A stretch of 63,367 bases of DNA, the filler included, from Asterionella formosa (taxonomy: Eukaryota), in NCBI GenBank assembly GCA_002256025.1. It is 6 parts of 6 records of this genome, joined end to end, with 100 filler letters (N's around TTAATTAATTAA, not from the genome) between each part and the next. Parts side by side here need not be neighbours in the genome. Positions count along the whole stretch, not along the records: positions 42,331 to 62,044 come from NKIB01003577.1; 5 more parts are not named here. The stretch is one strand, 5' to 3'. The position numbers and the translations under genes are program-made. Each line of letters starts with the position of its first letter. The stretch's first letter is position 1. Of the stretch, positions 8,301 through 56,904 are shown piece after piece. Below the pieces are notes generated by a model. That model did no database searches, was not told where the DNA came from, and was given only the letters and a program-made list of their open reading frames with translations.

Positions 8301-10756
8301 ATGCCTTCCATCATGAGCAAGATACTTTCGCAACCATGGTTCCTCCCTGCAGTCAGCATCCTGGCAGCGTCCGTGTTCATTTCCGTGCACTTGTCACCAG
8401 GAACGAAATTGTTTTCGTCAGCATCCAACAACGAAAACATTGGCGGAGGACCATTGACCAACGGGGGAGGGATCGTATCATTTACTTATACACCGACGAC
8501 AGCGCCAAACTCTGATTTACAATACGTACCTGTCCCCACTGTCATGGTTATTGGACATAATATACCACAAATCAATGACTTAGTTCCTTCTGCATCCCCC
8601 AAGCCGCAGCTTTGGAATATTCCCCTGGGAGAACCAACTCCGTAAGTACTCTCTGTAGGAAGAATCAATCAGGTTGCTGTTTGCGAGCGTGTCTGTATTT
8701 TCCATTTCTGGGATTGATTTGCAATATAGACGTTTTGCCTTTTTGGATATTCCAGCTATCATTGCAGTTGCTTGTCGTCCTCTTGCTGTTCAAGGCATGA
8801 TCATGTAACGTAGTCTATGTTGGATGAGGTAACTTGGATTGTTATCCGAAACTAACTCAATCTATATCCCTTGCCCTTTACAACTTCCCCTCCAGTGATC
8901 CGGCAATGTTATCCAACAATGGATCACCTAGTCCTGCACTCGGTTTGAACATTTCAAAGGGTGAGCCGACTCCAGATCCAGCGCTGTTACCCAACCAAGG
9001 GACACCTATTCACCTTGGTTGGAATATACCAAAGGGTGAGCCGACTCCAGATCCAGCGCTGTTACCCAACCAAGGGACACCTATTCACCTTGGTTGGAAT
9101 ATACCAAAGGGTGAGCCGACTCCAGATCCAGCGCTGTTACCCAACCAAGGGACACCTATTCACCTTAGTTGGAATATACCAAAGGGTGAGCCGACTCCAG
9201 ATCCAGCGTTGTTGCCAAGTCTCATAGGCTCCCCACAGGTTCAGTATTATCCTCCATCAGCTGTGCGTCCTTTGGAATTTGGTACGTCGGCACCATCAAT
9301 AAATCCCTCTCCTTCAATTCCACCCCTTCCTCTTGGAAAACCCACCAAATCACCTACCAAGAAACCTAGAGCACCGAAGCGATCGCCAACAGTTAGTCCT
9401 GTCTTATCCCCTCCAGTGTTTCGTCCCACAACAAGTCCAGGGCCATCCTCCCTGCCATATGGTAGTCCTCCCACGCTCGCCCCTACGAAAAAATCTGTCG
9501 CTAAACCATCTCGACGGCCTGCAGCATCAGTGGTGAAGACGCCATCACCGACAAAGGGAGTGTCGATAACTGACTCTCCATCGTCCGCTCCTACCCTCTT
9601 GGTTCCTTCTCCGACTAAACTTCCAAAGACAAATGCGCCATCAGCTGTCCCGACGCTGCCTCCAGTGACACCTCCTACTCCTCTAGTTCGTCCTCCGAGT
9701 CCTTGGCCAATGCCAGTGGTGCATTTGCCAATTCCAGTACCAGGACCACCTATGTCGCCTTTGCTAGTAATTGGTGGACCACCAACTCAAATCGTAATCC
9801 AAACCGGTTCGGGAGGGGGACAAGGAGGTGTTGGTGGGGTCAACGTCGATCCTAAAGTGGTTGTTACCTCCGGCGGGTGTGGCAGCGGCGGCGGTGTCGT
9901 TGTTGTTCACCCCTGGTGGAATGTCATGCCGACAGTCCCTCCGACTACCGAACCAGTTATTGCAAAGCACAATGAAGTTTTTCTCAAGGGTTGTGATCCA
10001 CTTCAGTGTGTCTTGAATGAAACAGCCACATTTTACGGCATCTCGAACGAAGACGAGTCAATCTACGAAATCTTTTACACTAATCCTATCAAGTGTTGTC
10101 GAGTTATTGTAGAGATTGGCGTTGGTAACGGAGAACGCCATTCGGTATCGAAATTCTTTGAAGATGCCTTGAAATGGCGACCACTTCTGATTGAGGCCAA
10201 CCCAGACGTTTATAAAGAATTACAAGTCAACCGTCCGAACACTACAAAAGTCAACGGTGCCTTTTGCGAAAGTGATTCCATGACGTTTGAAAATGGAAAC
10301 TTTCATGCCATTGGTGGGTCCGTAGAGGTTACTTCAGAGTTACATACCTTGGGTAGTAATAGTGCAAACGGCGGTGCGAACCACACAATTCCATGCCTTC
10401 AAATGGACACTGTCTTTAGTGAATACGGGATCACTAAAGTGGATGTTATGGTGATACGTGTACCTGGTGATGCTCTTGCTTACATTCGGTCCATGGACTG
10501 GACCGTTCGAGTCGACATTTGGATAATACTTATGCATGGACAGTCAAGACAAGAACGAGATGACTTAGTCCGTACGGTGCTGTCGAAGAATGAATACGTC
10601 CAAGCAGAATGGGATATCAAGAGGTGGTGTGCTGATACTGGTGCGTGTTTAAACAATGAAGTATTTTTGAGAAAGGGGTTCAACCCATTGCCTGGTGAGG
10701 TTGCTGAGTTGCAGCGAGGGTTGAGACGAAATCTGAGGGGCAGAACTGGAAAGTAA
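8301..10756 (+). CDS. Membrane-anchored Pro-rich FkbM-family-like protein, paralog B; join(8301..8641,8896..10756), start may be 8313
   Basis: The intron 8642-8895 (GTAAGT...CTAAC...TCCAG) joins in frame and recreates GEPTP|DPA, which matches the downstream repeat unit. The C-terminal domain is nearly identical to paralog A, and the upstream region ~7820-8300 is homologous to ~840-1325. Confidence 0.8.
8956..9216 (+). repeat. In-frame 75-bp (25-aa) tandem repeat, ~3.5 copies (KGEPTPDPALLPNQGTPIHLGWNIP)
   Basis: AAAGGGTGAGCCGACTCC recurs at 8956, 9031, 9106 and 9181. Paralog A has a single copy. Confidence 0.95.
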
Positions 10757-19747: not shown

Positions 19748-19847
19748 NNNNNNNNNNNNNNNNNNNNNNNNNNNNNNNNNNNNNNNNNNNNTTAATTAAT
19801 TAANNNNNNNNNNNNNNNNNNNNNNNNNNNNNNNNNNNNNNNNNNNN
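19748..19847. other. Assembly gap with artificial TTAATTAATTAA linker (also at ~21116, 22440, 42275, 62089)
   Basis: The same 12-mer, which has stops in all six frames, is centred in 100-nt N runs. Confidence 0.95.
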
Positions 19848-21071
19848 TGGCTCTAAATAAGTTTAAGATGCTTGTTGAGTCCAAAAGGTGGAATTTGCCC
19901 TCTGTCCAGGATGCCAAGTTGGAGGCCCAAATTGTCGCCCTCACGGCCAAATTAGAGTATTTCAAGGCAAACAAGTCACTCAAGGAGGTTAAAAATGATA
20001 AAAGGGAGAAAGCTCGCAAAGCCAAATTGTCCAAGAAGTGGGCATGGAAGCTTGTGCCACCTAAGGAAGATGACCCGAAGACCAAGACGGTAGACACCAA
20101 AGAGTATCATTGGTGCTCTAATCACGCCTCCTGGACGGTGCACACCGCCAAGGAGTGTAACATGAGCCCACAGGGCATGTCTCCTCCAGTGAAGATCCCA
20201 AAGAAGCCCAAAGACAAATCTGCCGAGGCCATCGCCCTCTCTACTGCCCTGGCCAGCATCATGGAGGGAAATGATGACGATGATGATTCTAATCAAGGTG
20301 GAGAGGATATGTCAGTTACCGGCTAGGAAGGTGGCCGGGGAATGATGAGCAAATTAAATAGCATACTTAGCTATTGGTTTTATCAGTTCATTCTCTGTGG
20401 GCCAGCGTGCATGACCTTATTGTCCGAGTTCTTTGGCCATACCGTGATGATGTGCCTATGGGTATGCTGGGCACTTGTGCTTGTATCTAGCATCCCAGTG
20501 CTATGCCCAGTGTTGGATGACACCTGTAGGACCCCATTTCGTACTATATACATTCCTAAGCGGAATCGTTCAAAGATGATGTCACTAATGTCAAGAGTAT
20601 GTGCAAGAGGGTGTTCGGCTATCAATACCACCTTGTGTCAGTTAGAGATTTCCCTTGCACGACCCACGTGTCGCATGAAATTCCGAAAGACAAAAGTTTT
20701 CCGATCAGGGGTTTCCTGGGAGCAAGAGTCCGGTGTCTACCGTAAGCCACGGGAGTATCTGCGGATTTCAGCACCTATGGATCAGCCCTTGTCATTTGGG
20801 ATTGGTATGTCCACCACGTCACGAGCCGGCCCGGTTACCCCACCTTTTGATTCAGATAGTTATATGTTGATGATTGACAATTGTTGCTCTAAGTGTGTGA
20901 CAAACTGCAGCACGGATTTTGTGGGAGTGCCTACACCAGTTCATGCTGAAATCAGCGGAGTTGGAGGCCCAATTGCGGTATTGCAAAAGGGAACGGTTAA
21001 ATGGAGCATACAGGACGACTTCGGTCGTATTCACCATTTTCGTATTCCTGGGACGTATTATGCCCCTGATG
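19848..21071 (+). mobile_element. Ty1/copia (diatom CoDi-type) fragment: gag C-terminus (to 20326) plus aspartic protease region (20342-21071), bounded by gaps
   Basis: The gag knuckle KTKTVDTKEYHWCSNHASWTVHTAKEC is followed by an acidic tail. The protease motif is FDSDSYMLMIDNCCSKCVTN...GTVKWSIQDDFG..H...IPGTYYAP. Confidence 0.85.
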
Positions 21072-22499
21072 NNNNNNNNNNNNNNNNNNNNNNNNNNNNN
21101 NNNNNNNNNNNNNNNTTAATTAATTAANNNNNNNNNNNNNNNNNNNNNNNNNNNNNNNNNNNNNNNNNNNNGTAAGCAATCGATGCTTTTAAGGTAAGAT
21201 TTATTTGCTTGCTATTTTTGCAATTATATCACCAAGCGAGGGATAACTCATGATGTGTCATGCTGTTGTTTTCAACATTCATTTGACATTTGAACAGGCC
21301 TTTTCAGAAAAGCAGTGTTCTTTGGAAAGTATGAGTGATAGCAGATGAAATGACACAGCAATATGGAGACCCGCAATGGAGGCCTTCAAGGTGAGCTTAA
21401 TCTTCAGTTTCATAATTGTATCAGCAAAGCGAGAGAGAAATCACATGGTTCTGTTATTGTTGTCTACATTTATTTTACATTTTAGCTGTCCATTTCACAA
21501 CAGGAGCCATCTTTTTTAATGCATCAGTGAGTTGCGGTGCTGCCTGGTGGCTGGCTAATGCCGGTGTTCTGCTGTCAATTTGTCTGCTCTGTGAAACAGT
21601 TGAAAAGCACATGTGTGTGTTGCTTTCTGCTGTTGCTAGTTCTATTAATTGAATTACTGACACACTGTTCTTTTGTAAATCTTTGCAGGTCAATGAAGAA
21701 GTCATTTCAAGGACAAGGAGGAAGCCAGTGTGATACATTCCTGTTGCGATTTCGCACCATGATGCCTTTTCAAGAATGAATAATTTTTTCATTCAGAATG
21801 AATGGTTTCTGTTTGTCTTGCATTGTCCTTACAGACATCTCATGATGCCTGCCTTCTCAAGACTGAAGATGCCATTCTGAAAGAACTGCTTTGTTTGATT
21901 GCATATCGAGATTTGTTTCCCATGTAATGTGAAATACCGGCAGTTGAATTAGAAATCAACATATTTGATTGTACTTTTAAATTACGTAAACAAATTTAAT
22001 TCATTATGTGAACTATATTATAAAATTACGTGAACAAAATTTTTAGGCAATGTGAACTAAATTACAGAATTAAGTGAAGTATTTTAAATAATTATGTGAA
22101 GTATTTCAAATAATTACGTGAAGTATTTCAAATAATTATGTGAAGGTGATCACGTAATATAGTGATGATCAGGAATGCATGCATGATACTCTGATCAAAT
22201 AATGAACGTGATGTATTCAGATAATATATAGATATATTCAAAAACGAGCATTTTGATGTATTCAACTAATTCATGTGATCAATTCAAAATCAACTAGGCT
22301 TATTTATGTGATGGTCACTTCATGTAATACGCGGCTTAGATGACCCAACGTTTGGCATAGTCCTGGATTGATCATTATTCCAAGCATTAAAAGCANNNNN
22401 NNNNNNNNNNNNNNNNNNNNNNNNNNNNNNNNNNNNNNNTTAATTAATTAANNNNNNNNNNNNNNNNNNNNNNNNNNNNNNNNNNNNNNNNNNNNGGCC

Positions 22500-32004: not shown

Positions 32005-32247
32005 TATTTGCAGCGTTCTTGAAATATTGGATCCTGTAAAACAAAAATCAGGAATCTCCGTCTCAGCCATAGAAACATTTATGTATACGGGTACCTGGTA
32101 ATGGTACAACTGTTAAACGCGTGCCGGTATAAATATAGAGAACATCATAGCGAGGCAAAAAAGTACATGACATCCTGCCTTCAAGATTTATCACATAAAT
32201 TTCCTTTTCCTTTAGAGAACTTCAGGGAAAGTAACACGTGAAGCAAA

Positions 32248-33789
32248 ATGGCTGCCGCGCTCCCCGAGTACCTGTGGATGTGCATTGTCGGAGGTTTCTT
32301 CGGCTTTATCTACGCCTTCGGAATTGGAGCAAACGATGTTGCGAATGCATTCGCCTCCACTGTTGCCTCTGGCTCCCTTACGTTGAAACAGGCTGTCCTC
32401 GTCGCAAGTATCTTCGAGTTTTGCGGGGCGTTCTTCCTGGGTTCTACTGTGACGAATACTATCAGATCCAAGATCTTCTCCACTAAGCTCTACGCTAATG
32501 AACCGGAAGTTGTCATGTTGGGCATGATGACTTCGCTAATTGTTGCTTCTTTTATGTTGCTTCTCGCCACCTCCTGGGGTCTCCCTGTGTCGACCACCCA
32601 CACCATTGTCGGTACTATCATGGGTTTCTCCATTTGTGCCAAGGGTTTTGATTCTATCAATTGGACTGTTGCCAAACAAATCTTTATTTCCTGGGCTGTG
32701 TCCCCCTTGGTCTCGGGAGGTCTCGCCTTCCTCTTCTTTTTATTCGTCAAGTACGCCATCATGAAAAGTGAGCATGCGTTTGACAGAGCAGTCCTGTTGT
32801 TCCCCGTTGTCTTGACTTGCGGCATTGGAATCGACCTTTTCTTCATTCTCTTTAAGGGAATTTCAAACAAAAAGAAACTTGAGCTCAAGGTAGCCCTTCC
32901 AATCGCCTTTGGGGTGGGTGCCTTCTGTGGGCTTATTTGGCTACTTATCGTCGGGCCAATTGTGAAGAGAAGAATCTATGCCAAAATGGCTGAGGATGAA
33001 GCCCATGTTGACGCAGTTGATGTCGAGGATGGCGAAGCCAAGGTTATCGACGACCCCACCAAGGAGGGCGAAGAAGTCGATCAAGTTGATGTTGACGGTG
33101 AAGTTGACACTCCGAAACCCGATGAGGCAGTAGTTGATGGTGACGCCGTTGTGAGAAAAAGCTTGTCGCAGAGATTTGCTGATGCAACATACGGACAAGA
33201 TCTCAGGGCCCAATCCTATCATGAGAACAAGAGATCCGAGCAGCTTTGGGACAACGCTGAAAATTATGACATCCATGCCGAAGAGCTCTTCACCTATGTT
33301 CAAGTGTTCACTGCTTGCCTCAACTCCTTCGCGCATGGAGCTAACGATGTAGCTAACGCTATTGCCCCGATCAGTGCCATTGTCTACATCTACCAGACTG
33401 GTGCACTCAACTCCAAGTCTCCCGTGCAAAAGTGGATCCTTGCCTACGGTGGAATAGGTATTGTTGCGGGTTTGCTCCTGTACGGTTACATCATCATGAA
33501 AACCTTGGGATACAAAATGACTCCTTTGTCTCCTTCCCGCGGCTCTTGCGCTGAACTTGCTGCCTCTCTTTTCGTGGTGACTGCTTCGTTTTTGGGCATT
33601 CCTGTCTCTTCTACCCAAAGCATTGTCGGCGCCGTTGCTGGTGTTGGTCTTGTGAATGGCTTGAAAAATTTGCAATGGTTGGTTTTGCTCCGTATTTGCT
33701 TGGGCTGGGTTGGAGTCTTCTTCACTTCGGTTATTCTCTCTGCTGGCCTATTCTCGTTCGTTGCCTTCTCACCTACTCTCGTGAATTAG
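32248..33789 (+). CDS. PHO4: Inorganic phosphate transporter, PiT/PHO4/SLC20 family (513 aa)
   Basis: Two GANDVAN signature motifs, PVSTTH and PVSSTQ, SPSRG..AEL, many TM segments and an acidic central loop. Intronless. Confidence 0.97.
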   Translation: MAAALPEYLWMCIVGGFFGFIYAFGIGANDVANAFASTVASGSLTLKQAVLVASIFEFCGAFFLGSTVTNTIRSKIFSTKLYANEPEVVMLGMMTSLIVASFMLLLATSWGLPVSTTHTIVGTIMGFSICAKGFDSINWTVAKQIFISWAVSPLVSGGLAFLFFLFVKYAIMKSEHAFDRAVLLFPVVLTCGIGIDLFFILFKGISNKKKLELKVALPIAFGVGAFCGLIWLLIVGPIVKRRIYAKMAEDEAHVDAVDVEDGEAKVIDDPTKEGEEVDQVDVDGEVDTPKPDEAVVDGDAVVRKSLSQRFADATYGQDLRAQSYHENKRSEQLWDNAENYDIHAEELFTYVQVFTACLNSFAHGANDVANAIAPISAIVYIYQTGALNSKSPVQKWILAYGGIGIVAGLLLYGYIIMKTLGYKMTPLSPSRGSCAELAASLFVVTASFLGIPVSSTQSIVGAVAGVGLVNGLKNLQWLVLLRICLGWVGVFFTSVILSAGLFSFVAFSPTLVN

Positions 33790-40600: not shown

Positions 40601-40723
40601 ACGTGGTACTGATTACTAGCTGTACTCCGAGTATCAGGTGATACCATTGCGGAAGCATTGATAAGTGGAAGTGACGAATCATAGTCTCTACACATTCTTT
40701 TTTGGTTTACTCTTCTTATCAGG

Positions 40724-42230
40724 ATGTCGTCTCGGCAATCGACATACACCCGAACTACGAGCGACCATGACCATGCTACCCAACGTGCTCGTACAACACG
40801 AACAACAACACCACCATCTGCACTCCCCAAGCACCCCCGACATTCCACACGCCTTCATGATACTTTCCCATGTTTCGCAGACGTTTCTCCTACCAGCCAA
40901 CAACATCTTTTCCGTGGTTCGGATCGCCAGCTGGCATCTTTACTCGAGACACTTGGAACCCTTTCTGCAACATCACGTGTCCACTCAGTGGCTCCTACTA
41001 ATCCTACTATGCGTAAAGTCGTACCTTACCCTATGACGATCAGCATACAATCTGACCCGCTTCATGATCTTATCACGACACGTGGTCGACGCCGTAATTC
41101 CTACCACCGTATCTCTCTTGAAGAGCGATTCAATACTGCCCCCCACAGTCGAGTCTCTATGACTCGAAACATACCTTTGGACGCCCGCTCTACTTATAGT
41201 GGCCAACAGTATGATACTCTTACAGACGGGAATACTGTTGATACTCATACATCTGTTCATCTCCCCTCTTCCCCTACTCCCACGTTACCTGTGGAGCTAC
41301 TCAATAACATTGAATCCTGCATACAGTCTTACGTAAAGGAACGGTTAAATTTAAATACCATAACACACGACGGCCGTTATTCTATGCACCCTGTGGAAAA
41401 TTACCATGTCCGCCGAGGTATGCAGCCACCACTTCAGTCCTCTACACTTTGTCCTTCTTTGTCACACCAGCATCACGAGTCATACAACAATATTGATCCT
41501 GATCCAGGTGACGATTGTCCTTCTTTGTCACACCAGCATCACGAGTCATACAACGATAATGATCCTGATCCAGGTGATGATCCACCAGAATCCACCTCAT
41601 CTGACCAGTCTCATTCCAACAGTGAAGCTCACCCTCCATTTAATGATCATCTTGCTGCCTACAATGAAGATAATCCATTCTTACCAAGATTCCGCCCCAT
41701 TCCAGCTACAGAAGAAGAACTCACGGACTATCTCAGAAATCTCCACATCCGCTCCTTGCATTGTAATTCTAATGCTCCTGATGTTGCCTGGTTCCAAAGT
41801 TCAACCACTACTCTCCTTGGTCCCTATGGTGGTCAATATGCCCAAATTAGTAAAACATTCACAAAACTTGTTACACTTTATTCCGCACACTTCTTTGCAT
41901 GGTATAATACACTTTGCGCAGCCTTTAATTCCACAGGATTTCACATGGATTTGCTCCCAAAAGTCATTGACATGGTCTATGATGCTGACCTCCGAGATTC
42001 TCCAATTGATGGTGAGCTTCTTGAAGGAATGCGCATCAAATTTGGTCCCAAAGTGAACATTGTCAATTTAGCAAAATTATCTATTCTGCTCTCAACCATG
42101 GCAACATACTTCCACTTCACCAGGGTAATCAAGCTAAGGACATACTTGAGAAATATAGCCCCACTGGAGATGGATTTGGTGTGCTTCAAGATTTTTTACT
42201 CTTATTTCACCCTGGTCTGAGAGATAATCA
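40724..42230 (+). mobile_element. Gag-like ORF of an LTR retrotransposon, frameshifted near 42050 and truncated by a gap
   Basis: Long Pro/Ser/His-rich ORF with a 66-bp internal duplication (CPSLSHQHHESYN..DPDPGDD x2). An alternate frame continues GDGFGVLQDFLLLFHPGL, like the DG[FY]..L..L....HP.L motif of diatom copia gags. Confidence 0.6.
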
Positions 42231-48631: not shown

Positions 48632-49657
48632 TCATCCTTTATTGTCTAGTCCCCTACTTCTGAGGAATGCGTTCTTGATGTTTTGTTTTTCCAATATCTT
48701 CTCGATTGCATTTGGAAGTTCGTTTAATCTCGAAATTTTTTCACTCACGTCCTTCATTCCCTTGCTGCCCAATTTTCGTCGACTGTTTGCATGTCGAGGT
48801 GACAATGTAGACCAGGATGGCTGACCACCTGCTGATACTTGCGAATCAGTCGACTTCTTTAACTCTTCCAACTCAATCCAAACTGCATGAGCTCCATTCC
48901 GGCTTGACCCCCATACATCATTCGCCAAGCAATCTCCGACATGACACCAAACATGTGAATTCACGGTGAGGCTGCGTGGGTAACGTTCGTGGTATGCGGC
49001 TATGCAGGCTTTGAAAATTCCTTTTTGAGGCTTCCTCTCTGGAAAGATTTTATCGTCTTCACCGCTAATGCAAAACTCAAAATAGGGTGCAAGAGTCGAG
49101 TTCATAAAGAGTGGATTGCCGCGCCCATTCGTAATGGCAGCGATGCAAACATGTGGATATTTCTCCTTAATCTTGTTCAGCATGTCAATGGCACCCACGA
49201 ATAGGTTACGCTCCGCCGAACGATGTCGTTCGTCCAACCATGCATTGTAAATATCGTGCACCAAATCATAGTTGACCACGTCTCCAGGCATCGAAAAGAA
49301 CTCCAACTCCTGCTGAATAGCCCGCTTTCTCAGTTCTGTATATGTCATCCTTCGTTTGGATTTACGCTGAATCGCCTTGGTATGGCGGAGAATATTTGTG
49401 TCTGTGGCTTTGGGGTAGCCAGCTGCGTGAAAGGCTTGAATCATGGCAACATCAGCATCAAACACCACAGACATGACCGGGAAGAGAGTGTCGTCCAAAT
49501 CAAATGTGAGCAGCGCCAATTTGGGTGTTTCCTCCTCGGATCCCGTTGTGCTGTAAAGTGAAGAAGATGAAGGATATGTTCTAACTCCAAATTGTGGACT
49601 TAAGCCAGCCACTGCCGTCGAAACTGACAACAACAGAACCACGGAAATACCAATCAT
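48632..49657 (-). CDS. HAD-superfamily hydrolase/phosphatase with N-terminal signal peptide (341 aa from ATG 49657)
   Basis: Motif I FDLDDTL, motif II ITNG, motif III RKP and motif IV HVGDCLAND are present. MIGISVVLLLSVSTAVAG is followed by a Ser-rich stretch (possible bipartite plastid presequence). 49657 is the only ATG before motif I. Confidence 0.92.
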   Translation of the reverse strand: MIGISVVLLLSVSTAVAGLSPQFGVRTYPSSSSLYSTTGSEEETPKLALLTFDLDDTLFPVMSVVFDADVAMIQAFHAAGYPKATDTNILRHTKAIQRKSKRRMTYTELRKRAIQQELEFFSMPGDVVNYDLVHDIYNAWLDERHRSAERNLFVGAIDMLNKIKEKYPHVCIAAITNGRGNPLFMNSTLAPYFEFCISGEDDKIFPERKPQKGIFKACIAAYHERYPRSLTVNSHVWCHVGDCLANDVWGSSRNGAHAVWIELEELKKSTDSQVSAGGQPSWSTLSPRHANSRRKLGSKGMKDVSEKISRLNELPNAIEKILEKQNIKNAFLRSRGLDNKG

Positions 49658-49676
49658 TCTGAGTGCTCCGGTAGAG

Positions 49677-50116
49677 CTATCCAAAGAAGCTCTTTTTGGC
49701 GTTTTCTGCTAATCTGCGTGCGCGTTCGTCGCTTCGACAAGCTTTGTAATTGTCGTAAAATGGTTGACAAGCGCCTTTGTTGTCGTAGTTTTCCTGAATG
49801 CACTCCAGCGAACGCCCGTATTCGAGACGACAGTCAGTGGCAAGCTTTTTTGCGATTTTGAAGTAAATAGTAGACTCATATGTGTGAGGGAAAGGGGAGA
49901 ACTGACGGAGAACACGAACGCAAACATAAACATGTTCGAAACATACTGGCGGCTCCTAACAACAAGTACAAAGGCGGGAAAGCTACCAGTACTAACCTTG
50001 GAGTTTTGCTTTCCATGCGAGTCGAACGAGGGTCTCAAGGGCTGACCTGCGTTATGCTGGTTAAAGTCTGTTGCAATTTTTCCCTTATTCGCTGCTGTTA
50101 ACTCTGATGAGGACAT
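49677..50116 (-). CDS. COX23: Twin CX9C mitochondrial IMS protein, COX23/CHCHD7-like (95 aa); complement(join(49677..49844,49997..50116))
   Basis: Exon 1 (MSSSEL...KQNSK) ends at a phase-0 GTTAGT donor. The intron 49845-49996 has a CTCAC branch-like site and an AAG acceptor. Exon 2 reads LATDCRLEYGRSLECIQENYDNKGACQPFYDNYKACRSDERARRLAENAKKSFFG*, i.e. C-x9-C-x10-C-x9-C. Not in the ORF track. Confidence 0.85.
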
Positions 50117-50601
50117 ACTGCATCCAATTTCGAAAATAGTGAACAAATGATTTATGGCAGCATCTTGATGTGGTTGTCGTGGACGAATTACAGCTAAACC
50201 CGACTTTTTGTGTCAGCAAGCAATGGCGTCAGCCAGATCGATCGGCGGTCAGTAGTGGATCTTCAGGCGTGTGTATCCGAGATCACCATATCGTCATTTC
50301 GGCAATTTTGCCGCAACTTGCATGTACCAGGTACCTGGTACCTTGTAACAGGGTACCAGGTACATGGTACCAGTACCACCATCTATGGTCGTCCGTGTAC
50401 TTGACGTGTACTGAGTACCTGGTACCTGGCACCAGGTACTGCACGGTATTTGGTTTTGTTGATGACTGATTGGTTTGCTTTCTTTGCACTTACGGAGGAC
50501 AGCAGCATCGCATACCGGTATGCACCCTGGGTGGTGTACTCGTACCCTGGTACCAGGTACCTACTCCAGTTTATCTACCGGTACAAGTGCGAAAATTGAC
50601 G

Positions 50602-50620: not shown

Positions 50621-50940
50621 TTGAATGTCCGTACGCTGTCCGCTAGTCCCGACGAAAATTTTACTCTTACTTCTTAGGTATTCATTACGGGTGATGTAAC
50701 TCGGCTGTCATGGTTCCCTCCTTTACATGGAACTTTTGGACTAGACTACCGGTACCGCTATTTTGGATTCCTGTGAATGGCTATGTCATTGATACAGGTA
50801 GAGACGATCTATGTAGGAACTATCGGTGCATATTTAGAAGCAAGCACACAAAAATACTGTTGCAGTTCCATGAAGATAACAAAATAGTTGCAGAAACATA
50901 GACTTGTTGAAAGTAATCAAATCACGATCAGTTGCTATGG

Positions 50941-53900
50941 ATGATGGAGCTCCAAGGACTTCTCAATGATTCAGCATACCAAAATGGGAATGAGAAGGAG
51001 TACAGCCCGTTGGTATCGTCGTGCAAACATTTGTTGCAGCCAAATGGCAGCGTTGTTGGGGAAGAGGTCGCTCAGACCGTTCTTCCCATGTTTCCGTCAT
51101 TCTTTAGTTGCATACCATCCCGATCATCTCCCGCCCTTGCCAGCATTGATGGTCGTGCGTCCATCAATCAAGACCGAGTTCGAGACTTCATCCAACGAGA
51201 ATTGGGACCGTCGATCCATGCTCTTGGCTTTGGTCGTGGCCATCGGATCGCTGTGGTCTTACCAAATGGACCAGAGTTGGCTCTGGCTGTCCTTGCCATT
51301 GCGAATTGGTCTTGTTGCGTCCCTCTCAACGCATCAGGTGCCAAGAGCGAGCTCGAAGCAGACTTGCGAGCATGTGGCGCCAGTCTTGTCATCGGTCTAG
51401 CAACTCTACAACAGTATAATGATGACGAAAACCAAGGCGGCACCAAAAGTCGTACTGTTATTCCCAACAGCAAGGATGGTTGTTTCAATGTCATGCCAAG
51501 CAACACAATGTCGGAATTTGGTGCGTTCGACCATGTTCACGAGACTGCCCGAAAACTTGGGATTCCTTTCGTTGGTCTTGTGCCGTCCAAACGCGAAGCT
51601 GGAATTTTTCGTTTGATCTCAGGCCTTCCAGTCACGGTAACTGACTCTTTGTCTGTTTCCGGAGGCGTGGATGCATATGGAACCTTTGGATCTTCTCAAG
51701 AAAGGGTGAATGAGTCTCCTGGAGGGCCCGTAACGTCGTCCAACCGGTTCTGGCCATGTTGCCATGATGATGAAGTGTTGGTGTTGTTTACCTCTGGAAC
51801 CACAGGGAACAAGAAGATTGTTGCCCATAAACTTGGAGAAATGATAGTAGCTACCGCAACTATCTCTTTGTCTTGGGATTTGACGTCCGCGGACGTCAAC
51901 TGTAACTTGATGCCGTTGTTTCATGTGGGTGGAATAGTCCGTCAAGTCTTTTCCCCTGTCATGTCCGGTGGATGTGTCATTTGCTGTCCTAGTTTTGATA
52001 CAAGCACCTTTTGGGCACTGTTGAAAAACCAGGCTTTCAATTGGTACTATGCTGCTCCTACTATGCATCAAATGATTTTGCAGGCTGGAAAGGAACAAAT
52101 CAATGGCACAATTACACTTGCACAGTCAATGAATCCTAAGCTACGTATGATCGCGAACGCTGCTGGTGGGTTGCTACCTTCGTTAGCGTTTGAGCTCCGA
52201 GATACGTTTCATGCGAATGTCTTACCATCCTATGGTATGACCGAATGCATGCCTATTTCGTCGCCTCCTTTTAATTATCAACTAGACAAACCAGGAACTT
52301 CTGGAGTAGCTGTTGGCCCTGAAATAGGCATTCTCAATTTGACCACTTTCAAGGCCTTGGAACCTGGTGTCGAAGGTCCTATTTGCGTCCGAGGATCACC
52401 GTGTTTTCTTGGCTATGGATTCAATCTTTCTGATCCCACTCAAACAACCGGAAAGGATTCCTTTATGAAGGACGGTTGGTTCAACACTGGTGACTTGGGT
52501 TACCTTGATCAGGATGGCTTTCTTTTCATTACTGGTCGTTCCAAAGAAGTCATCAATCGTGGCGGTGAAATTATCAGCCCAATGGAAGTTGAGGAAGCCA
52601 TCTTGAGCCATCCAGATGTTGTTGTGTGTGCTGCATTCTCAGCTTTTCACGATGTTCTACAAGAAGTTGTGGGAATTGTCATTGTGCCCAAGCCGAATCG
52701 ACCTCGGTTGGATCTTCAAGTTTTGCATGAGTACTTGGGAACTGATCGATTGGCATCACCCAAGTGGCCACAGTGTTTGGTCTTTATGGATGCCCTCCCT
52801 AAATCGCATACGAACAAGTTGCTGCGAGTTAAGTTGGGAGAGCGGCTTGGTCTGCCTGAGTTCACTGACGGCATGCATCCAATTGAGCGAACTTTTCAAG
52901 CTGTTTGTCCTCCACAAGGAACACCCCTGGAAACACCGATCTTTTGTGAGCAAGTCATCGTGTCGCCAAAAGAAGTTCAAGGCGCTCTACAAAAGAGTTT
53001 GTTGGATTCATTTGACTCGGTATCGCCAGAACACCAGGTTTGGGTGATACCTCATCCAACTCGAGTTGGCTCATTAGTTTGCCATGTATATGAAGTAGAT
53101 AGAAAGACGGCAATCGAAATGGCAAAGAAATGCTTGCATAGTTATCTTATCCCTTCCCATTTTTGTGTTTTGGAAACTAAGGCTATTGATGAGAATGATT
53201 TGTTGGCTCCTAGGCCGTCGGACGCTGTGATCAGTATTCTACTTGGACCTTCCAGTGGAGTGGTTGATCCATTGGTGCAAGAAATTCAAGATATCTTTCA
53301 GTCCCTACTGGACCTCGATTATGTTCCTCCTCCGGAATCGAGTTTCTTCAATCTTGGTGGGTCATCGTTGCTAGGCTCTCAGCTAGCAAGTCGAGTTCGG
53401 AAGATCCACGACATTTCCTTCAGCGGAGCCGAAGTCTTTCAGCATCCTAGCTGTAAAGCGATTGCAAAATTAATTGAAGAACGACAAAGTGCTGGCATAG
53501 GTGGTTCTAAATCAAAGTCTGTCAGTACAAAAGGCGCAACATTTCCATCCGAACGTCTCCCAGCAGAAGATGGTCTTTTCTCGGCTCTTGTACAATTGAC
53601 GCCACTGTGCATCGTCTATCCAATCTATCAAATTTCCAGGTTCTTTCTCTTCTTTAATGTTTTGCTCTGGACTCTTCACAGCATTCCTTCTGAGGGCTCC
53701 ATAATAACATTTGTGCTAACATTGATAATCTTCCACTTGTTGTGGGTCACATTCATGCCACTTGTGTTTGTTATTATCAAGTGGACAGTTATCGGACAAT
53801 ACAAAGAAGGTCGATATGCACTATGGAGTAATTACTATTTGCGTTGGTGGTTTGTTGACGTTTGTCGCAAGCTGTTTGGTAGGGGCATCTGGGGATCAAG

Positions 53901-55929
53901 TAAGCCAGTTTTAAACTTTTACTATCGCATGCTGGGTGCTAAAATTGGTAAAGGAGCAAAAATTTCATTGGAAGCAACACTTGCTGAATTTGATTTGGTT
54001 ACTATTGGAGAAGGAGCAGCAATTGAACATTCGACTGTTCGTGCTTTTGGATTGGACAATGGAGCCATGATTTTGGGGTCCATTTATGTTGGCAGTTATG
54101 CAAGTGTCGGATGTCGATCTATTGTTGCTCCTTTCACTATGGTTCCCGATGATTGTCATTTGGGACCAGTTTCGTCATCATATGAAGTGGGAACTGCTCT
54201 TGATAACAAGCATGTGAGATACAATCGGGCAGCCCTGCCGACACCCAATCTCTTCACACAAGTCTGTATTGGGGCACCTATCACATTTCTGGTGGATTGC
54301 ATTTCAAAATTTCCTGCGTTCCTTGTTCTCTACTATATGATGAAAATTCCAGGACGCCAGAGTAATGCTGAGTTCGGGACATTAAGTGATTTGATGGAGT
54401 GGTTGTGTGATCTCCGAAGAATTCCTTACTATATTGGGATTAGAATGGCAAAGAACCTTTTAACTCCATTTGTGAAAATGACAGGTGCACTTGTAGTCAA
54501 ATGGCTTATCATTGGTAAATTCCATGCTGGACCTCGAGATACAACATCTGAATGGCAACTATTGAGGCATTGGTTGGCGGCAACGTTGTTTTCTCGCCAA
54601 AACATGCAAGAAGTGACTGAGCTTCTGGGCCGACATTATGAGCTGGTGAGTTGCCTATACCGCCTTTGTGGTGCCAAGATTGGATATCGTGTTTTTTGGC
54701 CAGGCGTACAACCAGTTTTTGGTGGCGAGTTTGAGTTGCTGGAAATTGGAGACGATGTTGTCTTTGGATCCCGTAGTACTATGCTATGCACGACATCAGA
54801 CTGTTGTGAGAAGATCACACTTTGTGCGGGTTCCAATGTTGCAGATAACTGCGTGCTTCTTCCAGGTTCAATCATTGGAAAGAATGCTGTTCTTGGCTCC
54901 AATTCAGTTTGTCCTGAAGGTCGTTACCTACCTGAATCAAGTTTGTGGTTTGGTTCTCAAGGGTGTGAGCCTGTCTTACTGGAACAGGGAACAGAGGATA
55001 TATCTGGCGTGATTATGTCTACTGATATCAAACAAGATAAGCTTCAATTTGAAGGTGATAGCTCCACTCTTCGTCCATTTGGCAAGGCATTTTACAATGG
55101 CAAGGCCACCTATAGGGTCATACCTTTGTACATGGTGATAATTTTTACCTTCACAGTACGAATATTCTTTGCTGCTTTTCATACCACTCCACTCCTTGGT
55201 GCCCTTCACGGAGCTGGTGGTTTCTTGTGGGGATTTCGCTTTGAAGATCGAGACTATGCTTCAATTCATTACTCCTCTGCGACCGTCTTTATGACATTGT
55301 TGACAATTGCCTTCATTACCAATTTCATTCGTGTCTTGCTGTGGGCAGCCATTGAGGTCAGTGCAAAATGGGCTATTATGGGTCGCAGAAAGGAAGGAAG
55401 ATACAATTGGGATACATCTCCATATGCACAGAATTGGGAGTTGTATCAGGGTATAACACGAATTCGACAAATTGGGCGTCACAGCATGATGGATTTCATC
55501 TGCGGTACCCGGTACATGGTTGATTTCTTCCGTTGGCATGGTTGTAAAATTGGTAAAAGCGTTTGTCTCTACCCTACCGGAGGTGATCCCTACATGCCAG
55601 AACCAGACCTTGTTGAAATTGGAGACCAATCTGCAATTGACTGTGCTTCCATTGTTACACATTTGAACACAAAGGGAAATTTCGAATTGGTAAAAATTAA
55701 AGTGAGCAAGCATTGCACTTTACGAGCACGGTCAAGAATCCAACAAGGTGTCTTTATGGAACCTGGTTCTATGTTGTTGGAGAAAGGTCTTGCCATGACT
55801 GGGGAAGTCATTGAAGCTGACAGTGTTTGGCAAGGTGCACCAGCATCAAGACTGTTTGCATACTCAAGTGACCCTTTACTTCCGTCAGATTCATGTTCAG
55901 ATTTTGTTGATGATGGGTACCTTGTTTAG
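50941..55929 (+). CDS. Membrane-bound NRPS-like enzyme: adenylation domain, carrier (T) domain, three TM/left-handed beta-helix terminal repeats (epsilon-poly-lysine synthetase-like architecture), 1662 aa
   Basis: A-domain motifs LFTSGTTGNKK, SYGMTE, FNTGDLG, ITGRSKEVINRGGE and LPKSHTNK. The T motif is FFNLGGSSL. Three blocks read KW..IG....G.Y..W...GAKIG...LV.IG. The first ATG is at 50941; no intron is needed. Confidence 0.93.
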   Translation: MMELQGLLNDSAYQNGNEKEYSPLVSSCKHLLQPNGSVVGEEVAQTVLPMFPSFFSCIPSRSSPALASIDGRASINQDRVRDFIQRELGPSIHALGFGRGHRIAVVLPNGPELALAVLAIANWSCCVPLNASGAKSELEADLRACGASLVIGLATLQQYNDDENQGGTKSRTVIPNSKDGCFNVMPSNTMSEFGAFDHVHETARKLGIPFVGLVPSKREAGIFRLISGLPVTVTDSLSVSGGVDAYGTFGSSQERVNESPGGPVTSSNRFWPCCHDDEVLVLFTSGTTGNKKIVAHKLGEMIVATATISLSWDLTSADVNCNLMPLFHVGGIVRQVFSPVMSGGCVICCPSFDTSTFWALLKNQAFNWYYAAPTMHQMILQAGKEQINGTITLAQSMNPKLRMIANAAGGLLPSLAFELRDTFHANVLPSYGMTECMPISSPPFNYQLDKPGTSGVAVGPEIGILNLTTFKALEPGVEGPICVRGSPCFLGYGFNLSDPTQTTGKDSFMKDGWFNTGDLGYLDQDGFLFITGRSKEVINRGGEIISPMEVEEAILSHPDVVVCAAFSAFHDVLQEVVGIVIVPKPNRPRLDLQVLHEYLGTDRLASPKWPQCLVFMDALPKSHTNKLLRVKLGERLGLPEFTDGMHPIERTFQAVCPPQGTPLETPIFCEQVIVSPKEVQGALQKSLLDSFDSVSPEHQVWVIPHPTRVGSLVCHVYEVDRKTAIEMAKKCLHSYLIPSHFCVLETKAIDENDLLAPRPSDAVISILLGPSSGVVDPLVQEIQDIFQSLLDLDYVPPPESSFFNLGGSSLLGSQLASRVRKIHDISFSGAEVFQHPSCKAIAKLIEERQSAGIGGSKSKSVSTKGATFPSERLPAEDGLFSALVQLTPLCIVYPIYQISRFFLFFNVLLWTLHSIPSEGSIITFVLTLIIFHLLWVTFMPLVFVIIKWTVIGQYKEGRYALWSNYYLRWWFVDVCRKLFGRGIWGSSKPVLNFYYRMLGAKIGKGAKISLEATLAEFDLVTIGEGAAIEHSTVRAFGLDNGAMILGSIYVGSYASVGCRSIVAPFTMVPDDCHLGPVSSSYEVGTALDNKHVRYNRAALPTPNLFTQVCIGAPITFLVDCISKFPAFLVLYYMMKIPGRQSNAEFGTLSDLMEWLCDLRRIPYYIGIRMAKNLLTPFVKMTGALVVKWLIIGKFHAGPRDTTSEWQLLRHWLAATLFSRQNMQEVTELLGRHYELVSCLYRLCGAKIGYRVFWPGVQPVFGGEFELLEIGDDVVFGSRSTMLCTTSDCCEKITLCAGSNVADNCVLLPGSIIGKNAVLGSNSVCPEGRYLPESSLWFGSQGCEPVLLEQGTEDISGVIMSTDIKQDKLQFEGDSSTLRPFGKAFYNGKATYRVIPLYMVIIFTFTVRIFFAAFHTTPLLGALHGAGGFLWGFRFEDRDYASIHYSSATVFMTLLTIAFITNFIRVLLWAAIEVSAKWAIMGRRKEGRYNWDTSPYAQNWELYQGITRIRQIGRHSMMDFICGTRYMVDFFRWHGCKIGKSVCLYPTGGDPYMPEPDLVEIGDQSAIDCASIVTHLNTKGNFELVKIKVSKHCTLRARSRIQQGVFMEPGSMLLEKGLAMTGEVIEADSVWQGAPASRLFAYSSDPLLPSDSCSDFVDDGYLV

Positions 55930-56904
55930 GTATCCTTGCTGTTCATAATATATTTTCCCAAGGCTTGTATAGAACCAGATAATATTCACAGAAATAATAC
56001 TGTTGCCTCTCAAATTATGACACTTTGTGATTATCTAGGCCAATAGAGAAATTCAATAAAGCAACATGTTAATGCATTCCTAGAAGGAGGCTTATTGTTT
56101 TCATCATTCCTTTAAGAAAATGATCACAGTTGCAAAAGTCCCCTCTTTTGCTGCAGCAAGGATATGGCATCAGGGATGTTCTTATTATTCCACATCTCTT
56201 GGAAAAAGTAGCATCATTTCCAGGTTTCAGACAACAATGGTATCAATTTTGGGTATCAGCAACAACTACCATTATAACATCAATACAGCATCCTTGATAC
56301 CAAAATGATACCATTTTGACCCCCTCCAAGAAGGTATCAGTGAAACTGGTGAGTATCATTTCTGTTGTCACTGATAAAATAAACTGAACATAAGCCAGCA
56401 GGGTACTAATTTTAGCATCACTTGTTACATTTCATCATCAATATTTGCATTATCTTCTCAGAGATATTGATGCTCCTCATCATGCCTGAGCAGTGATGGC
56501 GACATGATTGATTGATGTATATACTGGTTTATGCATATACTTTGGTGTAGACCAGACTACCAATATAGACTATGGATTCTAGGAATTTCAAATTCATAGA
56601 TTTCCTACATATATTAAGTACTGAATAGCCATCAAAATAATCTTGAGGGAAAACACATGTTTGTAGCCAACTTTTAAGCATTGAAGATCCATTATACTTT
56701 TGGGTGATATGAGAATTTTTTTAATGGAAAATGAATATTTTCAGTTTAAATCGAATAGCGATTGTGTGATACTTTTTCAAATCTTATGATACCATCTCCA
56801 AAATGATTAGGACAACAGCCCTTATTTAGTAGCTAGTCATTTTGAAATATTGTTTAATTGCGCACATATACACATGATGTTCAAAAAATTTCCCATTAGT
56901 AATG

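What the first reader, a model, noticed from the sequence alone, without database searches (positions are those of the whole stretch)
50941..55929. Pls-like membrane-bound NRPS-like enzyme with an acyl-CoA-ligase-type A domain
Seen: an intact A domain, a phosphopantetheine-site T domain and three TM/LbH repeats, with no canonical C or TE domain. Known: A-T followed by three membrane-embedded terminal repeats is the layout of epsilon-poly-L-lysine synthetase and related uncharacterised bacterial and fungal proteins. Seen: the A4 region is MPLFHVGG rather than FDxS, as in carboxylate-CoA ligases (oxalyl-CoA synthetase/PCS60-like). Inference: it activates a non-amino carboxylic acid and polymerises it or transfers it at a membrane (e.g. 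EPS or wall acylation). The product is unknown and could define a new diatom pathway.
Basis: partly seen in the sequence, partly recalled or inferred. Interest (0 to 1): 0.75.

Follow-up and report, generated by a model that had tools for sequence, protein, structure and literature searches.

The report
Diatom homologue of polymalate synthetase
This diatom gene encodes a membrane enzyme of the same family, and with the same predicted substrate pocket, as the black-yeast enzyme that strings malic acid into the polyester polymalate, which suggests that diatoms make a malate polymer or malate-decorated surface material that has not yet been looked for.

Summary
The gene is an intact 1,662-aa ORF, single-copy in this genome and covered by uninterrupted RNA contigs. 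Its layout is an oxalyl-CoA-synthetase-like A domain, a T domain (Ser809) and three helix-pair/left-handed-beta-helix repeats. It is not a poly-lysine synthetase, and its family is not uncharacterised. It is collinear with one Aureobasidium protein (36% over 1,475 aa). All four published knock-out primers for the A. melanogenum polymalate synthetase gene (PMAs) translate onto that protein, in order. The ten predicted pocket residues are identical (VGRYNASPIK). An Arg aligns with the amine-binding Glu of the ornithine polymerase PosA, and the oxalate-specific residues are lost. Most likely it activates L-malate, loads it on Ser809 and polymerises it at a membrane (about 0.6). Transfer of malyl groups to a glycan is the main rival. 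The family spans diatoms, fungi, other protists and a few bacteria. This scan noted it before in Ostreococcus, basidiomycetes and Elsinoe. New here: the primer link to PMAs, the pocket charge swap, and a vestigial second A-subdomain. No diatom product has been shown.

The parts
50941..55929 (+). Intron-free ORF, 1,662 aa, polymalate-synthetase-family (PMAs) membrane NRPS-like enzyme
50843..56014 (+). Extent covered by RNA contigs without a joint (approximate transcript; contigs do not give exact ends or strand)
51211..52416 (+). Adenylation core (aa 91-492), nearest to oxalyl-CoA synthetases
51784..51816 (+). P-loop LFTSGTTGNKK (aa 282-292)
51910..51945 (+). A4 region MPLFHVGGIVRQ (aa 324-335): G330 replaces the oxalate-pocket His; R334 aligns with PosA Glu221
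52585..52818 (+). First (active) A-subdomain with catalytic-type Lys626 (aa 549-626)
52948..53232 (+). Second, degenerate A-subdomain (about aa 670-764) lacking the catalytic Lys; probable remnant of the original NRPS A domain
   Evidence: Pfam does not detect it in the diatom copy
53278..53475 (+). Thiolation (carrier) domain, aa 780-845; attachment Ser809 at 53365-53367 in FFNLGGSS
53599..54159 (+). Terminal repeat 1: helix pair (aa 887-950) plus left-handed beta-helix
54250..54954 (+). Terminal repeat 2: helix pair (aa 1104-1191) plus left-handed beta-helix
55126..55845 (+). Terminal repeat 3: helix pair (aa 1396-1480) plus left-handed beta-helix carrying E1554 (55600-55602) and H1574 (55660-55662), shared with bacterial Pls/PosA; candidate catalytic pair

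Best explanation
A diatom member of the polymalate-synthetase (PMAs) family that makes poly(beta-L-malate), or short malate oligoesters, at a membrane. Step 1 (inferred from pocket identity with Aureobasidium PMAs): the A domain adenylates one carboxyl of L-malate with ATP, while Arg334 at the pocket floor holds the other carboxylate. Step 2 (shown: site conserved and a PPTase present; inferred: loading): malyl passes to the phosphopantetheine arm on Ser809. Step 3 (inferred from the fold and from the Pls mechanism): the three beta-helix repeats form a pseudo-trimeric O-acyltransferase on six membrane helices. His1574/Glu1554 of repeat 3 activate the 2-hydroxyl of a non-covalently held malate or growing chain, which attacks the thioester; this repeats without a C or TE domain. 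Family membership is close to certain (about 0.95). The confidence given is for malate polyester as the product in diatoms.
For: (1) Collinear full-length homology to the Aureobasidium protein: 525/1475 identities. By domain, A is 51% and the terminal domain 32%, against 21-23% and 23-26% for three bacterial Pls/PosA proteins. (2) 4 of 4 published PMAs knock-out primers, designed on A. melanogenum ATCC 62921, translate onto that protein at about aa 298-306, 481-487, 634-639 and 819-825, in the right order and orientation; shuffled primers reach the score 0, 1, 5 and 0 times in 100. (3) Ten pocket columns that reproduce the published PosA code DMEHNGTVSK read VGRYNASPIK in both the diatom and A. 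melanogenum, and in 28 of 51 family rows; R334 is present in 51 of 51. R334 is kept in 109/109 diatom-search, 188/189 fungal-search and 40/41 representative sequences. (4) AtAAE3 oxalate residues His216, Ser289 and His319 (PMC8905533) are replaced by Gly330, Ala408 and Pro438. (5) Both domain trees put diatoms and fungi in one family clade apart from OCS-like and Pls proteins. (6) Ser809 kept in 369/369, Glu1554 in 349/349 and His1574 in 348/349 aligned sequences; both of the latter are kept in 3 of 3 bacterial Pls/PosA. (7) Best fold matches of the repeats are maltose-O-acetyltransferase-type proteins (Z 12.1 and 12.0, rmsd 3.8 and 3.5 over 147 and 146 residues). (8) An Sfp/AASDHPPT-type PPTase is in the genome. 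(9) PMAs mechanism and knock-out data as reported in PMC11286673, PMC9210645 and PMC9909216.
Against: No biochemical test on any diatom protein. The library holds 0 papers with both 'polymalic acid' and 'diatom' (other spellings not searched with 'diatom'). PMAs itself has not been purified according to PMC9210645; the evidence is genetic, and complementation restored only a third of production. The family is present in many fungi (Fusarium, Trichoderma, Erysiphe) that the reviews read do not list as producers, so an identical pocket may serve another acceptor or a related acid. Diatoms carry Gln335 (109/109) where fungi carry Asn (188/189), and Ala405 where most fungi carry Cys. The R334-E221 register rests on one alignment with a one-residue gap beside it; I had no model coordinates to see where R334 points. 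Two reviews place the six TM helices of PMAs at the N-terminus, whereas 3 of the 4 hydropathy peaks of the Aureobasidium protein lie after the T domain; I read that as a reviewing error given the primer match. QHD40385.1 itself was never seen, and 5,049 bp implies 1,682 aa against 1,685-1,690 in the full-length cluster members listed (one longer model, 1,726 aa).
Confidence: 0.6

Rival explanations
1. Same activation of malate (or a near C4 acid), but the terminal domain transfers the acyl group to a glycan or lipid acceptor, giving malylated EPS, wall or membrane material rather than a free homopolymer.
For: The closest folds of the repeats are sugar O- and N-acyltransferases. PMC9210645 says fungal polymalate is membrane-embedded, with probable covalent bonds to polysaccharides. 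Deleting PMAs changed pullulan molecular weight from 3.3e6 to 1.3e5 (PMC9909216). The family is far wider than the known producers.
Against: Every characterised protein with this terminal domain in the papers read is a homopolymer synthetase. No glycan genes lie next to the gene: on its contig the neighbours are a HAD hydrolase and a small ORF.
Confidence: 0.2
2. A polyester synthetase for a different hydroxy-dicarboxylate (for example 2-hydroxyglutarate, citramalate or tartrate), the diatom clade having drifted in specificity.
For: The diatom clade sits on a long, fully supported stem in both trees and has its own Gln335 and Ala405.
Against: All ten PosA-anchored pocket positions equal those of A. 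melanogenum.
Confidence: 0.12
3. An oxalate-activating enzyme (oxalyl transfer or detoxification), as automatic names such as 'Oxalate--CoA ligase' on fungal members suggest.
For: Nearest solved structures and folds are oxalyl-CoA synthetases; some database records carry the name.
Against: His216, Ser289 and His319, the last two described as conserved only in oxalyl-CoA synthetases, are replaced. The prokaryotic OCS-like proteins read mostly keep the H-x-H-G, R-S-x-S and H-Q motifs, which the family lacks. Oxalate has no hydroxyl with which to form a homopolymer (general chemistry).
Confidence: 0.04
4. A true Pls/PosA-type poly(amino acid) synthetase making a cationic isopeptide.
For: The terminal domain is homologous to Pls/PosA.
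Against: The alpha-amino-binding Asp217 and side-chain-binding Glu221, both essential in PosA, are Val329 and Arg334. TIGR02353 gives 210-216 bits against a cut-off of 423, while PosA scores 725.
Confidence: 0.02

Closest known systems
Polymalate synthetase PMAs of Aureobasidium melanogenum ATCC 62921 (QHD40385.1; Wang et al. 2020, seen only through PMC11905612, PMC11286673, PMC9210645 and PMC9909216)
   Same: Layout (A, vestigial A-sub, T, three TM/LbH repeats), length of about 1,690 aa, 36% identity over 1,475 aa, identical 10-residue pocket code, Ser/Glu/His sites, sub-threshold TIGR02353 score (198 against 210-216), no TE.
   Different: Diatom host; Gln335 for Asn and Ala405 for Cys next to the pocket; a shorter N-terminus before the A domain; product and regulation not shown.
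epsilon-poly-L-lysine synthetase Pls and delta-poly-L-ornithine synthetase PosA (TIGR02353 family)
   Same: A-T plus six TM helices and three beta-helix repeats; E and H of repeat 3 shared; no C or TE domain.
   Different: The A domain is of CoA-ligase type, only 21-23% identical, with no amino-binding Asp and Arg in place of Glu; there is an extra A-subdomain; the score is below the family cut-off.
Oxalyl-CoA synthetases AtAAE3, LsOCS and yeast Pcs60p (PDB 5IE0/5IE2/5IE3, 6QJZ, 8AFF)
   Same: Nearest sequence and fold relatives of the A domain; sister group in the A tree, though rooted on long branches.
   Different: Stand-alone CoA ligases with His216/Ser289/His319; here these are replaced, and the acceptor is inferred to be the T domain.
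Trimeric LbH acyltransferases (maltose and galactoside O-acetyltransferases; PDB 3ECT, 3SRT)
   Same: Fold of each terminal repeat.
   Different: The three copies lie in one chain, are anchored by helix pairs, and only repeat 3 keeps the conserved His; the donor is inferred to be a T-domain thioester, not acetyl-CoA.

Membership tests
Polymalate synthetase (PMAs) family | Full-length collinear homology to the gene knocked out as PMAs | tested here: met
   36% over 1,475 aa; 4 of 4 knock-out primers map to the Aureobasidium homologue
Polymalate synthetase (PMAs) family | A, T and membrane-bound condensation-like domain with six TM helices, no TE | tested here: met
   TM character from hydropathy and model only
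Polymalate synthetase (PMAs) family | Same predicted substrate pocket | tested here: met
   VGRYNASPIK in both; flanking Q335/N and A405/C differ
Polymalate synthetase (PMAs) family | Identity with record QHD40385.1 itself | tested here: inconclusive
   Accession not among the listed cluster members (15 listed of 52 and 15 of 126), nor in the supplement searched; linked through primers instead
Polymalate synthetase (PMAs) family | Activates L-malate and produces poly(beta-L-malate) | not testable with these tools
   Needs assay, complementation or knock-out
Polymalate synthetase (PMAs) family | Carrier Ser and a PPTase to modify it | tested here: met
   Ser809 in 369/369; PPTase with ACPS and AASDHPPT_N domains in the genome; the modification itself is not shown
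Pls/PosA homopoly(amino acid) synthetases | TIGR02353 above the curated cut-off (423 bits) | tested here: not met
   210-216 bits; PosA control 725
Pls/PosA homopoly(amino acid) synthetases | Amino-acid A domain with Asp (alpha-amine) and Glu (side-chain amine) | tested here: not met
   Val329 and Arg334 at PosA Asp217 and Glu221
Pls/PosA homopoly(amino acid) synthetases | Three tandem TM-pair/LbH repeats after T | tested here: met
Oxalyl-CoA synthetase (AAE3/Pcs60) | Oxalate-pocket His216, Ser289 and His319 | tested here: not met
   Gly330, Ala408, Pro438
Canonical NRPS module | Condensation domain (PF00668) | tested here: not met
   Not among the 6 Pfam families at E<=0.1; the region after T folds as LbH repeats

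The most novel reading that the evidence does not exclude
Centric, araphid and raphid diatoms share an expressed polymalate synthetase and secrete a poly(malate) polyanion, or malylated exopolymer, as an overlooked part of their extracellular or cell-wall organic matrix. It would be a C4-acid carbon sink that binds cations. The enzyme arose by grafting an oxalyl-CoA-synthetase-type ligase onto a Pls module whose own A core was lost, swapping an amine-binding Glu for a carboxylate-binding Arg and so turning a polyamide synthetase into a polyester synthetase.
Probability: 0.35. Interest if true: 0.8.

Novelty: new member of a known kind. Interest (0 to 1): 0.5.

Why it matters
If the diatom enzyme does what its fungal relative does, diatoms make a biodegradable polyanionic polyester that the papers read report from fungi and a slime mould. 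Diatoms are major primary producers (general knowledge), so this would add an unmeasured compound to their exudates and surfaces. It gives a cheap, direct test: alkali-releasable malate, and complementation of an existing Aureobasidium knock-out. The pocket code and the E/H pair also give the first site-level hypotheses I found for an enzyme of industrial interest that, according to PMC9210645, has not been purified. As a kind of system it is known, and the scan has met the family in other genomes.

Tried and rejected
Gene cluster: none seen. The window is a scaffold with N gaps, and ORFs around the gene encode a HAD hydrolase, a phosphate transporter, two FkbM-type methyltransferases and unassigned ORFs. 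Paralogues: the terminal-domain search of the own genome gave only this locus (2 of 2 matches); the A-domain search gave it plus 10 matches at 25-38%; both are lower bounds. Bacterial contamination: rejected, because all 11 hits with an organism name among the 120 listed are diatoms, a poly(A) library holds the transcript and the neighbour is spliced. Direct retrieval of QHD40385.1 failed, and the primary paper (PMID 31765748) is not held. A sequence alignment of repeat 3 to sugar acetyltransferases in the PDB found only weak gamma-carbonic-anhydrase-like and hexapeptide hits (best E 0.003), so equating His1574 with the catalytic His of those enzymes is recalled and untested. No solved structure covers the whole terminal domain (best TMq 0.17 among the listed rows; one search tested mainly repeats 2 and 3). 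Pfam does not see the second A-subdomain in the diatom copy (0 families) and gives E 0.16 in the planctomycete copy. The A-domain tree is a quick tree with long-branch outgroups, and 4 of 71 rows (two Pls, two paralogues) dropped out at extraction. The terminal tree lost 6 rows at extraction and I dropped 10 long or divergent names by hand, of which some were already missing. Neither tree shows direction of transfer. Presence in Phaeodactylum tricornutum or Thalassiosira pseudonana was not tested. Literature searches that found no description of the diatom gene; PMC4661987 surveyed algal NRPSs by C domain and so would not list it. Runs with small word shares were not used. No complex prediction was run.

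Full report
1. Observation. Window 50941-55929 (+) is one open frame of 1,662 codons. Pfam gives AMP-binding 91-492, AMP-binding_C 549-626, PP-binding 780-845 and Hexapep, and no C or TE domain among 6 families at E<=0.1. TIGR02353 matches in three stretches at 210 bits against a cut-off of 423. A profile of the last repeat finds three repeats (iE 7e-15, 9e-10, 3e-81; reversed control 0.18) and three in PosA. AlphaFold models are confident: terminal domain pLDDT 92, pTM 0.90, with six long helices in three pairs, each pair followed by a beta-helix; A domain pLDDT 88. The gene is real and expressed. RNA contigs of runs X1, X2 and X6 (poly(A)) cover it without a joint, and the same runs splice a 152-nt GT-AG intron in the neighbouring gene. 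Of 6 variants inside the ORF, 4 are synonymous. The terminal domain has one locus in the own genome.

2. Relatives. Of 2,365 hits, the best 120 were listed at 51-100% identity. All 11 with an organism name are diatoms: Seminavis, Mayamaea, Stephanodiscus, Nitzschia, Cylindrotheca, a Bacillariaceae record and a 'Psemu1' record (Pseudo-nitzschia multiseries, by recall of the code). A Gedaniella member appears. More distant full-length homologues, mostly 32-42% identical, belong to ascomycetes, a basidiomycete, chytrids, a mucoralean, the diplonemid Artemidia, Gymnodinium, Mesostigma and a Myxococcota record. In the A-domain tree the 51 family rows form one clade (SH-aLRT 99) beside an OCS-like clade. 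In the terminal-domain tree 38 family rows stand apart from 3 Pls/PosA rows. Diatoms are monophyletic in both. These are quick trees; the rows dropped are listed under Tried and rejected.

3. Link to a studied enzyme. From recall I suspected the Aureobasidium polymalate synthetase. Passages of PMC11905612, PMC11286673 (also section 10, part 1) and PMC9210645 describe it as an NRPS-like A-T-C-like enzyme with six TM regions, no TE, a 5,049-bp gene and accession QHD40385.1. The primary paper is not held. Searching from a Hortaea homologue found an Aureobasidium protein of 1,688-1,690 aa, 36% identical to the diatom protein over 1,475 aa. It is the only lineage named Aureobasidium in the best 120 of 758 hits. 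The accession did not surface, so I tested identity another way. PMC9909216 (passages, section 18 and the supplement) knocked out PMAs with primers designed on the A. melanogenum ATCC 62921 sequence and reports a product free of PMA. All four primers translate onto the A. melanogenum homologue in order and orientation (9, 7, 6 and 7 identical residues; shuffles reach these 0, 1, 5 and 0 times in 100). The gene called PMAs is therefore a member of this family. Against this, two reviews place its TM helices at the N-terminus, which the sequence does not bear out, and the length differs by about 6 residues.

4. Substrate pocket. The A domain is nearest to oxalyl-CoA synthetases by sequence and fold. 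However, AtAAE3 His216, Ser289 and His319 (PMC8905533 passages) are Gly330, Ala408 and Pro438 here. In an alignment whose columns reproduce the published PosA code DMEHNGTVSK (PMC10522769 passages), the diatom and A. melanogenum proteins both read VGRYNASPIK, as do 28 of 51 family rows. PosA Asp217, which binds the alpha-amine, is Val329; Glu221, which binds the side-chain amine and is essential, aligns with Arg334. Arg334 is kept in 109/109, 188/189 and 40/41 sequences of the three search sets (the sets hold near-duplicates). In EntE, Ser240, five residues after Asn235 as Arg334 is after Val329, binds the substrate (PMC11661926 passage), which supports a pocket-floor position by analogy. An opened pocket with a buried Arg fits a C4 dicarboxylate such as malate. 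This is inference: the register has a one-residue gap beside it and I could not inspect coordinates. Diatoms differ from most fungi at Gln335 and Ala405.

5. Carrier and terminal domain. Ser809 is kept in 369 of 369 aligned homologues (374 candidates), Glu1554 in 349/349 and His1574 in 348/349. The last two are shared with 3 of 3 bacterial Pls/PosA, and in the alignment only repeat 3 has a His at this place. The repeats fold like maltose-O-acetyltransferase-type LbH enzymes (Z 12.1 and 12.0), as was modelled for PosA. In Pls the growing chain is held non-covalently and extended iteratively (PMC9205021 passage). An Sfp/AASDHPPT-type PPTase is encoded in the genome.

6. An unreported piece. Between Lys626 and the T domain lies a second A-subdomain. 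A profile built from 26 family segments hits 86 of 86 forward targets, which include the query and the Aureobasidium protein themselves. It falls on the A-subdomains of OCS-like, NRPS and Pls proteins (Pls/PosA iE 6e-10 to 2e-7) and hits 0 of 86 reversed sequences. The Atlas features of the Aureobasidium segment give AMP-binding_C clusters (0.92, few shared features). The segment lacks the catalytic Lys, barely matches the family's own first subdomain, and within three multi-A proteins scores higher on the last A domain (NRPS-type by position before the carrier, inferred) than on the earlier ones (36 vs 25, 37 vs 14, 26 vs 9-13 bits), although stand-alone OCS-like proteins reach 36 bits. The simplest history (inference) is an OCS-type ligase fused in front of a Pls-type module that then lost its own A core.

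7. Mechanism, ranked. Polymalate synthesis (0.6): malate to malyl-AMP to malyl-S-Ppant on Ser809, then ester formation with the hydroxyl of a bound malate or chain at the His1574/Glu1554 site. Shown here: architecture, conservation, expression, family identity, pocket identity. Inferred: substrate, catalytic roles, product and location. Rivals: malyl transfer to a glycan or lipid (0.2; the folds are sugar acyltransferases, PMAs deletion altered pullulan size, and the family is wider than known producers); another hydroxy-diacid (0.12); oxalate (0.04); poly(amino acid) (0.02).

8. Novelty. This is a new member of a known kind. It works like Pls but fails two Pls membership tests, and it passes the testable PMAs ones. 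Earlier notes of this scan reached the same family reading for Ostreococcus, two basidiomycetes and Elsinoe; I had stated my reading before the first look-up and did not count the notes as evidence. I found no paper on the diatom gene or on diatom polymalate; most subscription journals are not in the library and bioRxiv supplements are closed. Interest 0.5: the enzyme type is known, but a conserved, expressed diatom copy with an identical pocket makes a clear and easily tested prediction of an unreported diatom polymer.

Noticed in passing
window 48632-50116 (-): A spliced mRNA (intron 49845-49996, GT-AG) carries a short Cys-containing ORF ending about 20 nt before a HAD hydrolase ORF; RNA contigs span both. 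Already noted by this scan (e1-7563759).
   Followed up: partly
window 1793-3553 and 8828-10756 (+): Two paralogous Pro-rich proteins ending in an FkbM-type methyltransferase domain; the second has a short N-terminal peptide repeated several times.
   Followed up: no
window 32242-33789 (+): PHO4/PiT-family phosphate transporter.
   Followed up: no
window 19796-21127 and 40685-42220 (+): ORFs without Pfam match beside N gaps that look like retrotransposon remnants (judged from recall).
   Followed up: no
window about 50320-50565: A GGTACC/GTACC-rich low-complexity tract upstream of the gene, matched by unrelated transcripts' ends; it may be a shared promoter-type repeat.
   Followed up: no
L014:4668-9434: A Planctomycetota contig carries the whole PMAs-type architecture near an ECF sigma gene; it groups with a Myxococcota record (P0163). 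Bacterial members seem rare.
   Followed up: partly
P0218, P0242, P0142: NRPS-like proteins with more than one A domain before a carrier domain, at least one oxalyl-CoA-synthetase-like in P0218 and P0242: a possible model for how the ligase was grafted.
   Followed up: partly
L005:1069-6906: An Azospirillum Pls/PosA-family gene lies directly upstream of a fumarate hydratase gene; possibly chance, but of note given the malate link.
   Followed up: no
P0231 (1,702 aa): A full-length family member with degenerate P-loop and pocket motifs, apparently a catalytically altered A domain.
   Followed up: no
L094 and L095: The PPTase matches twice with the same score on two contigs, probably haplotypes or a duplicated assembly.
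   Followed up: no
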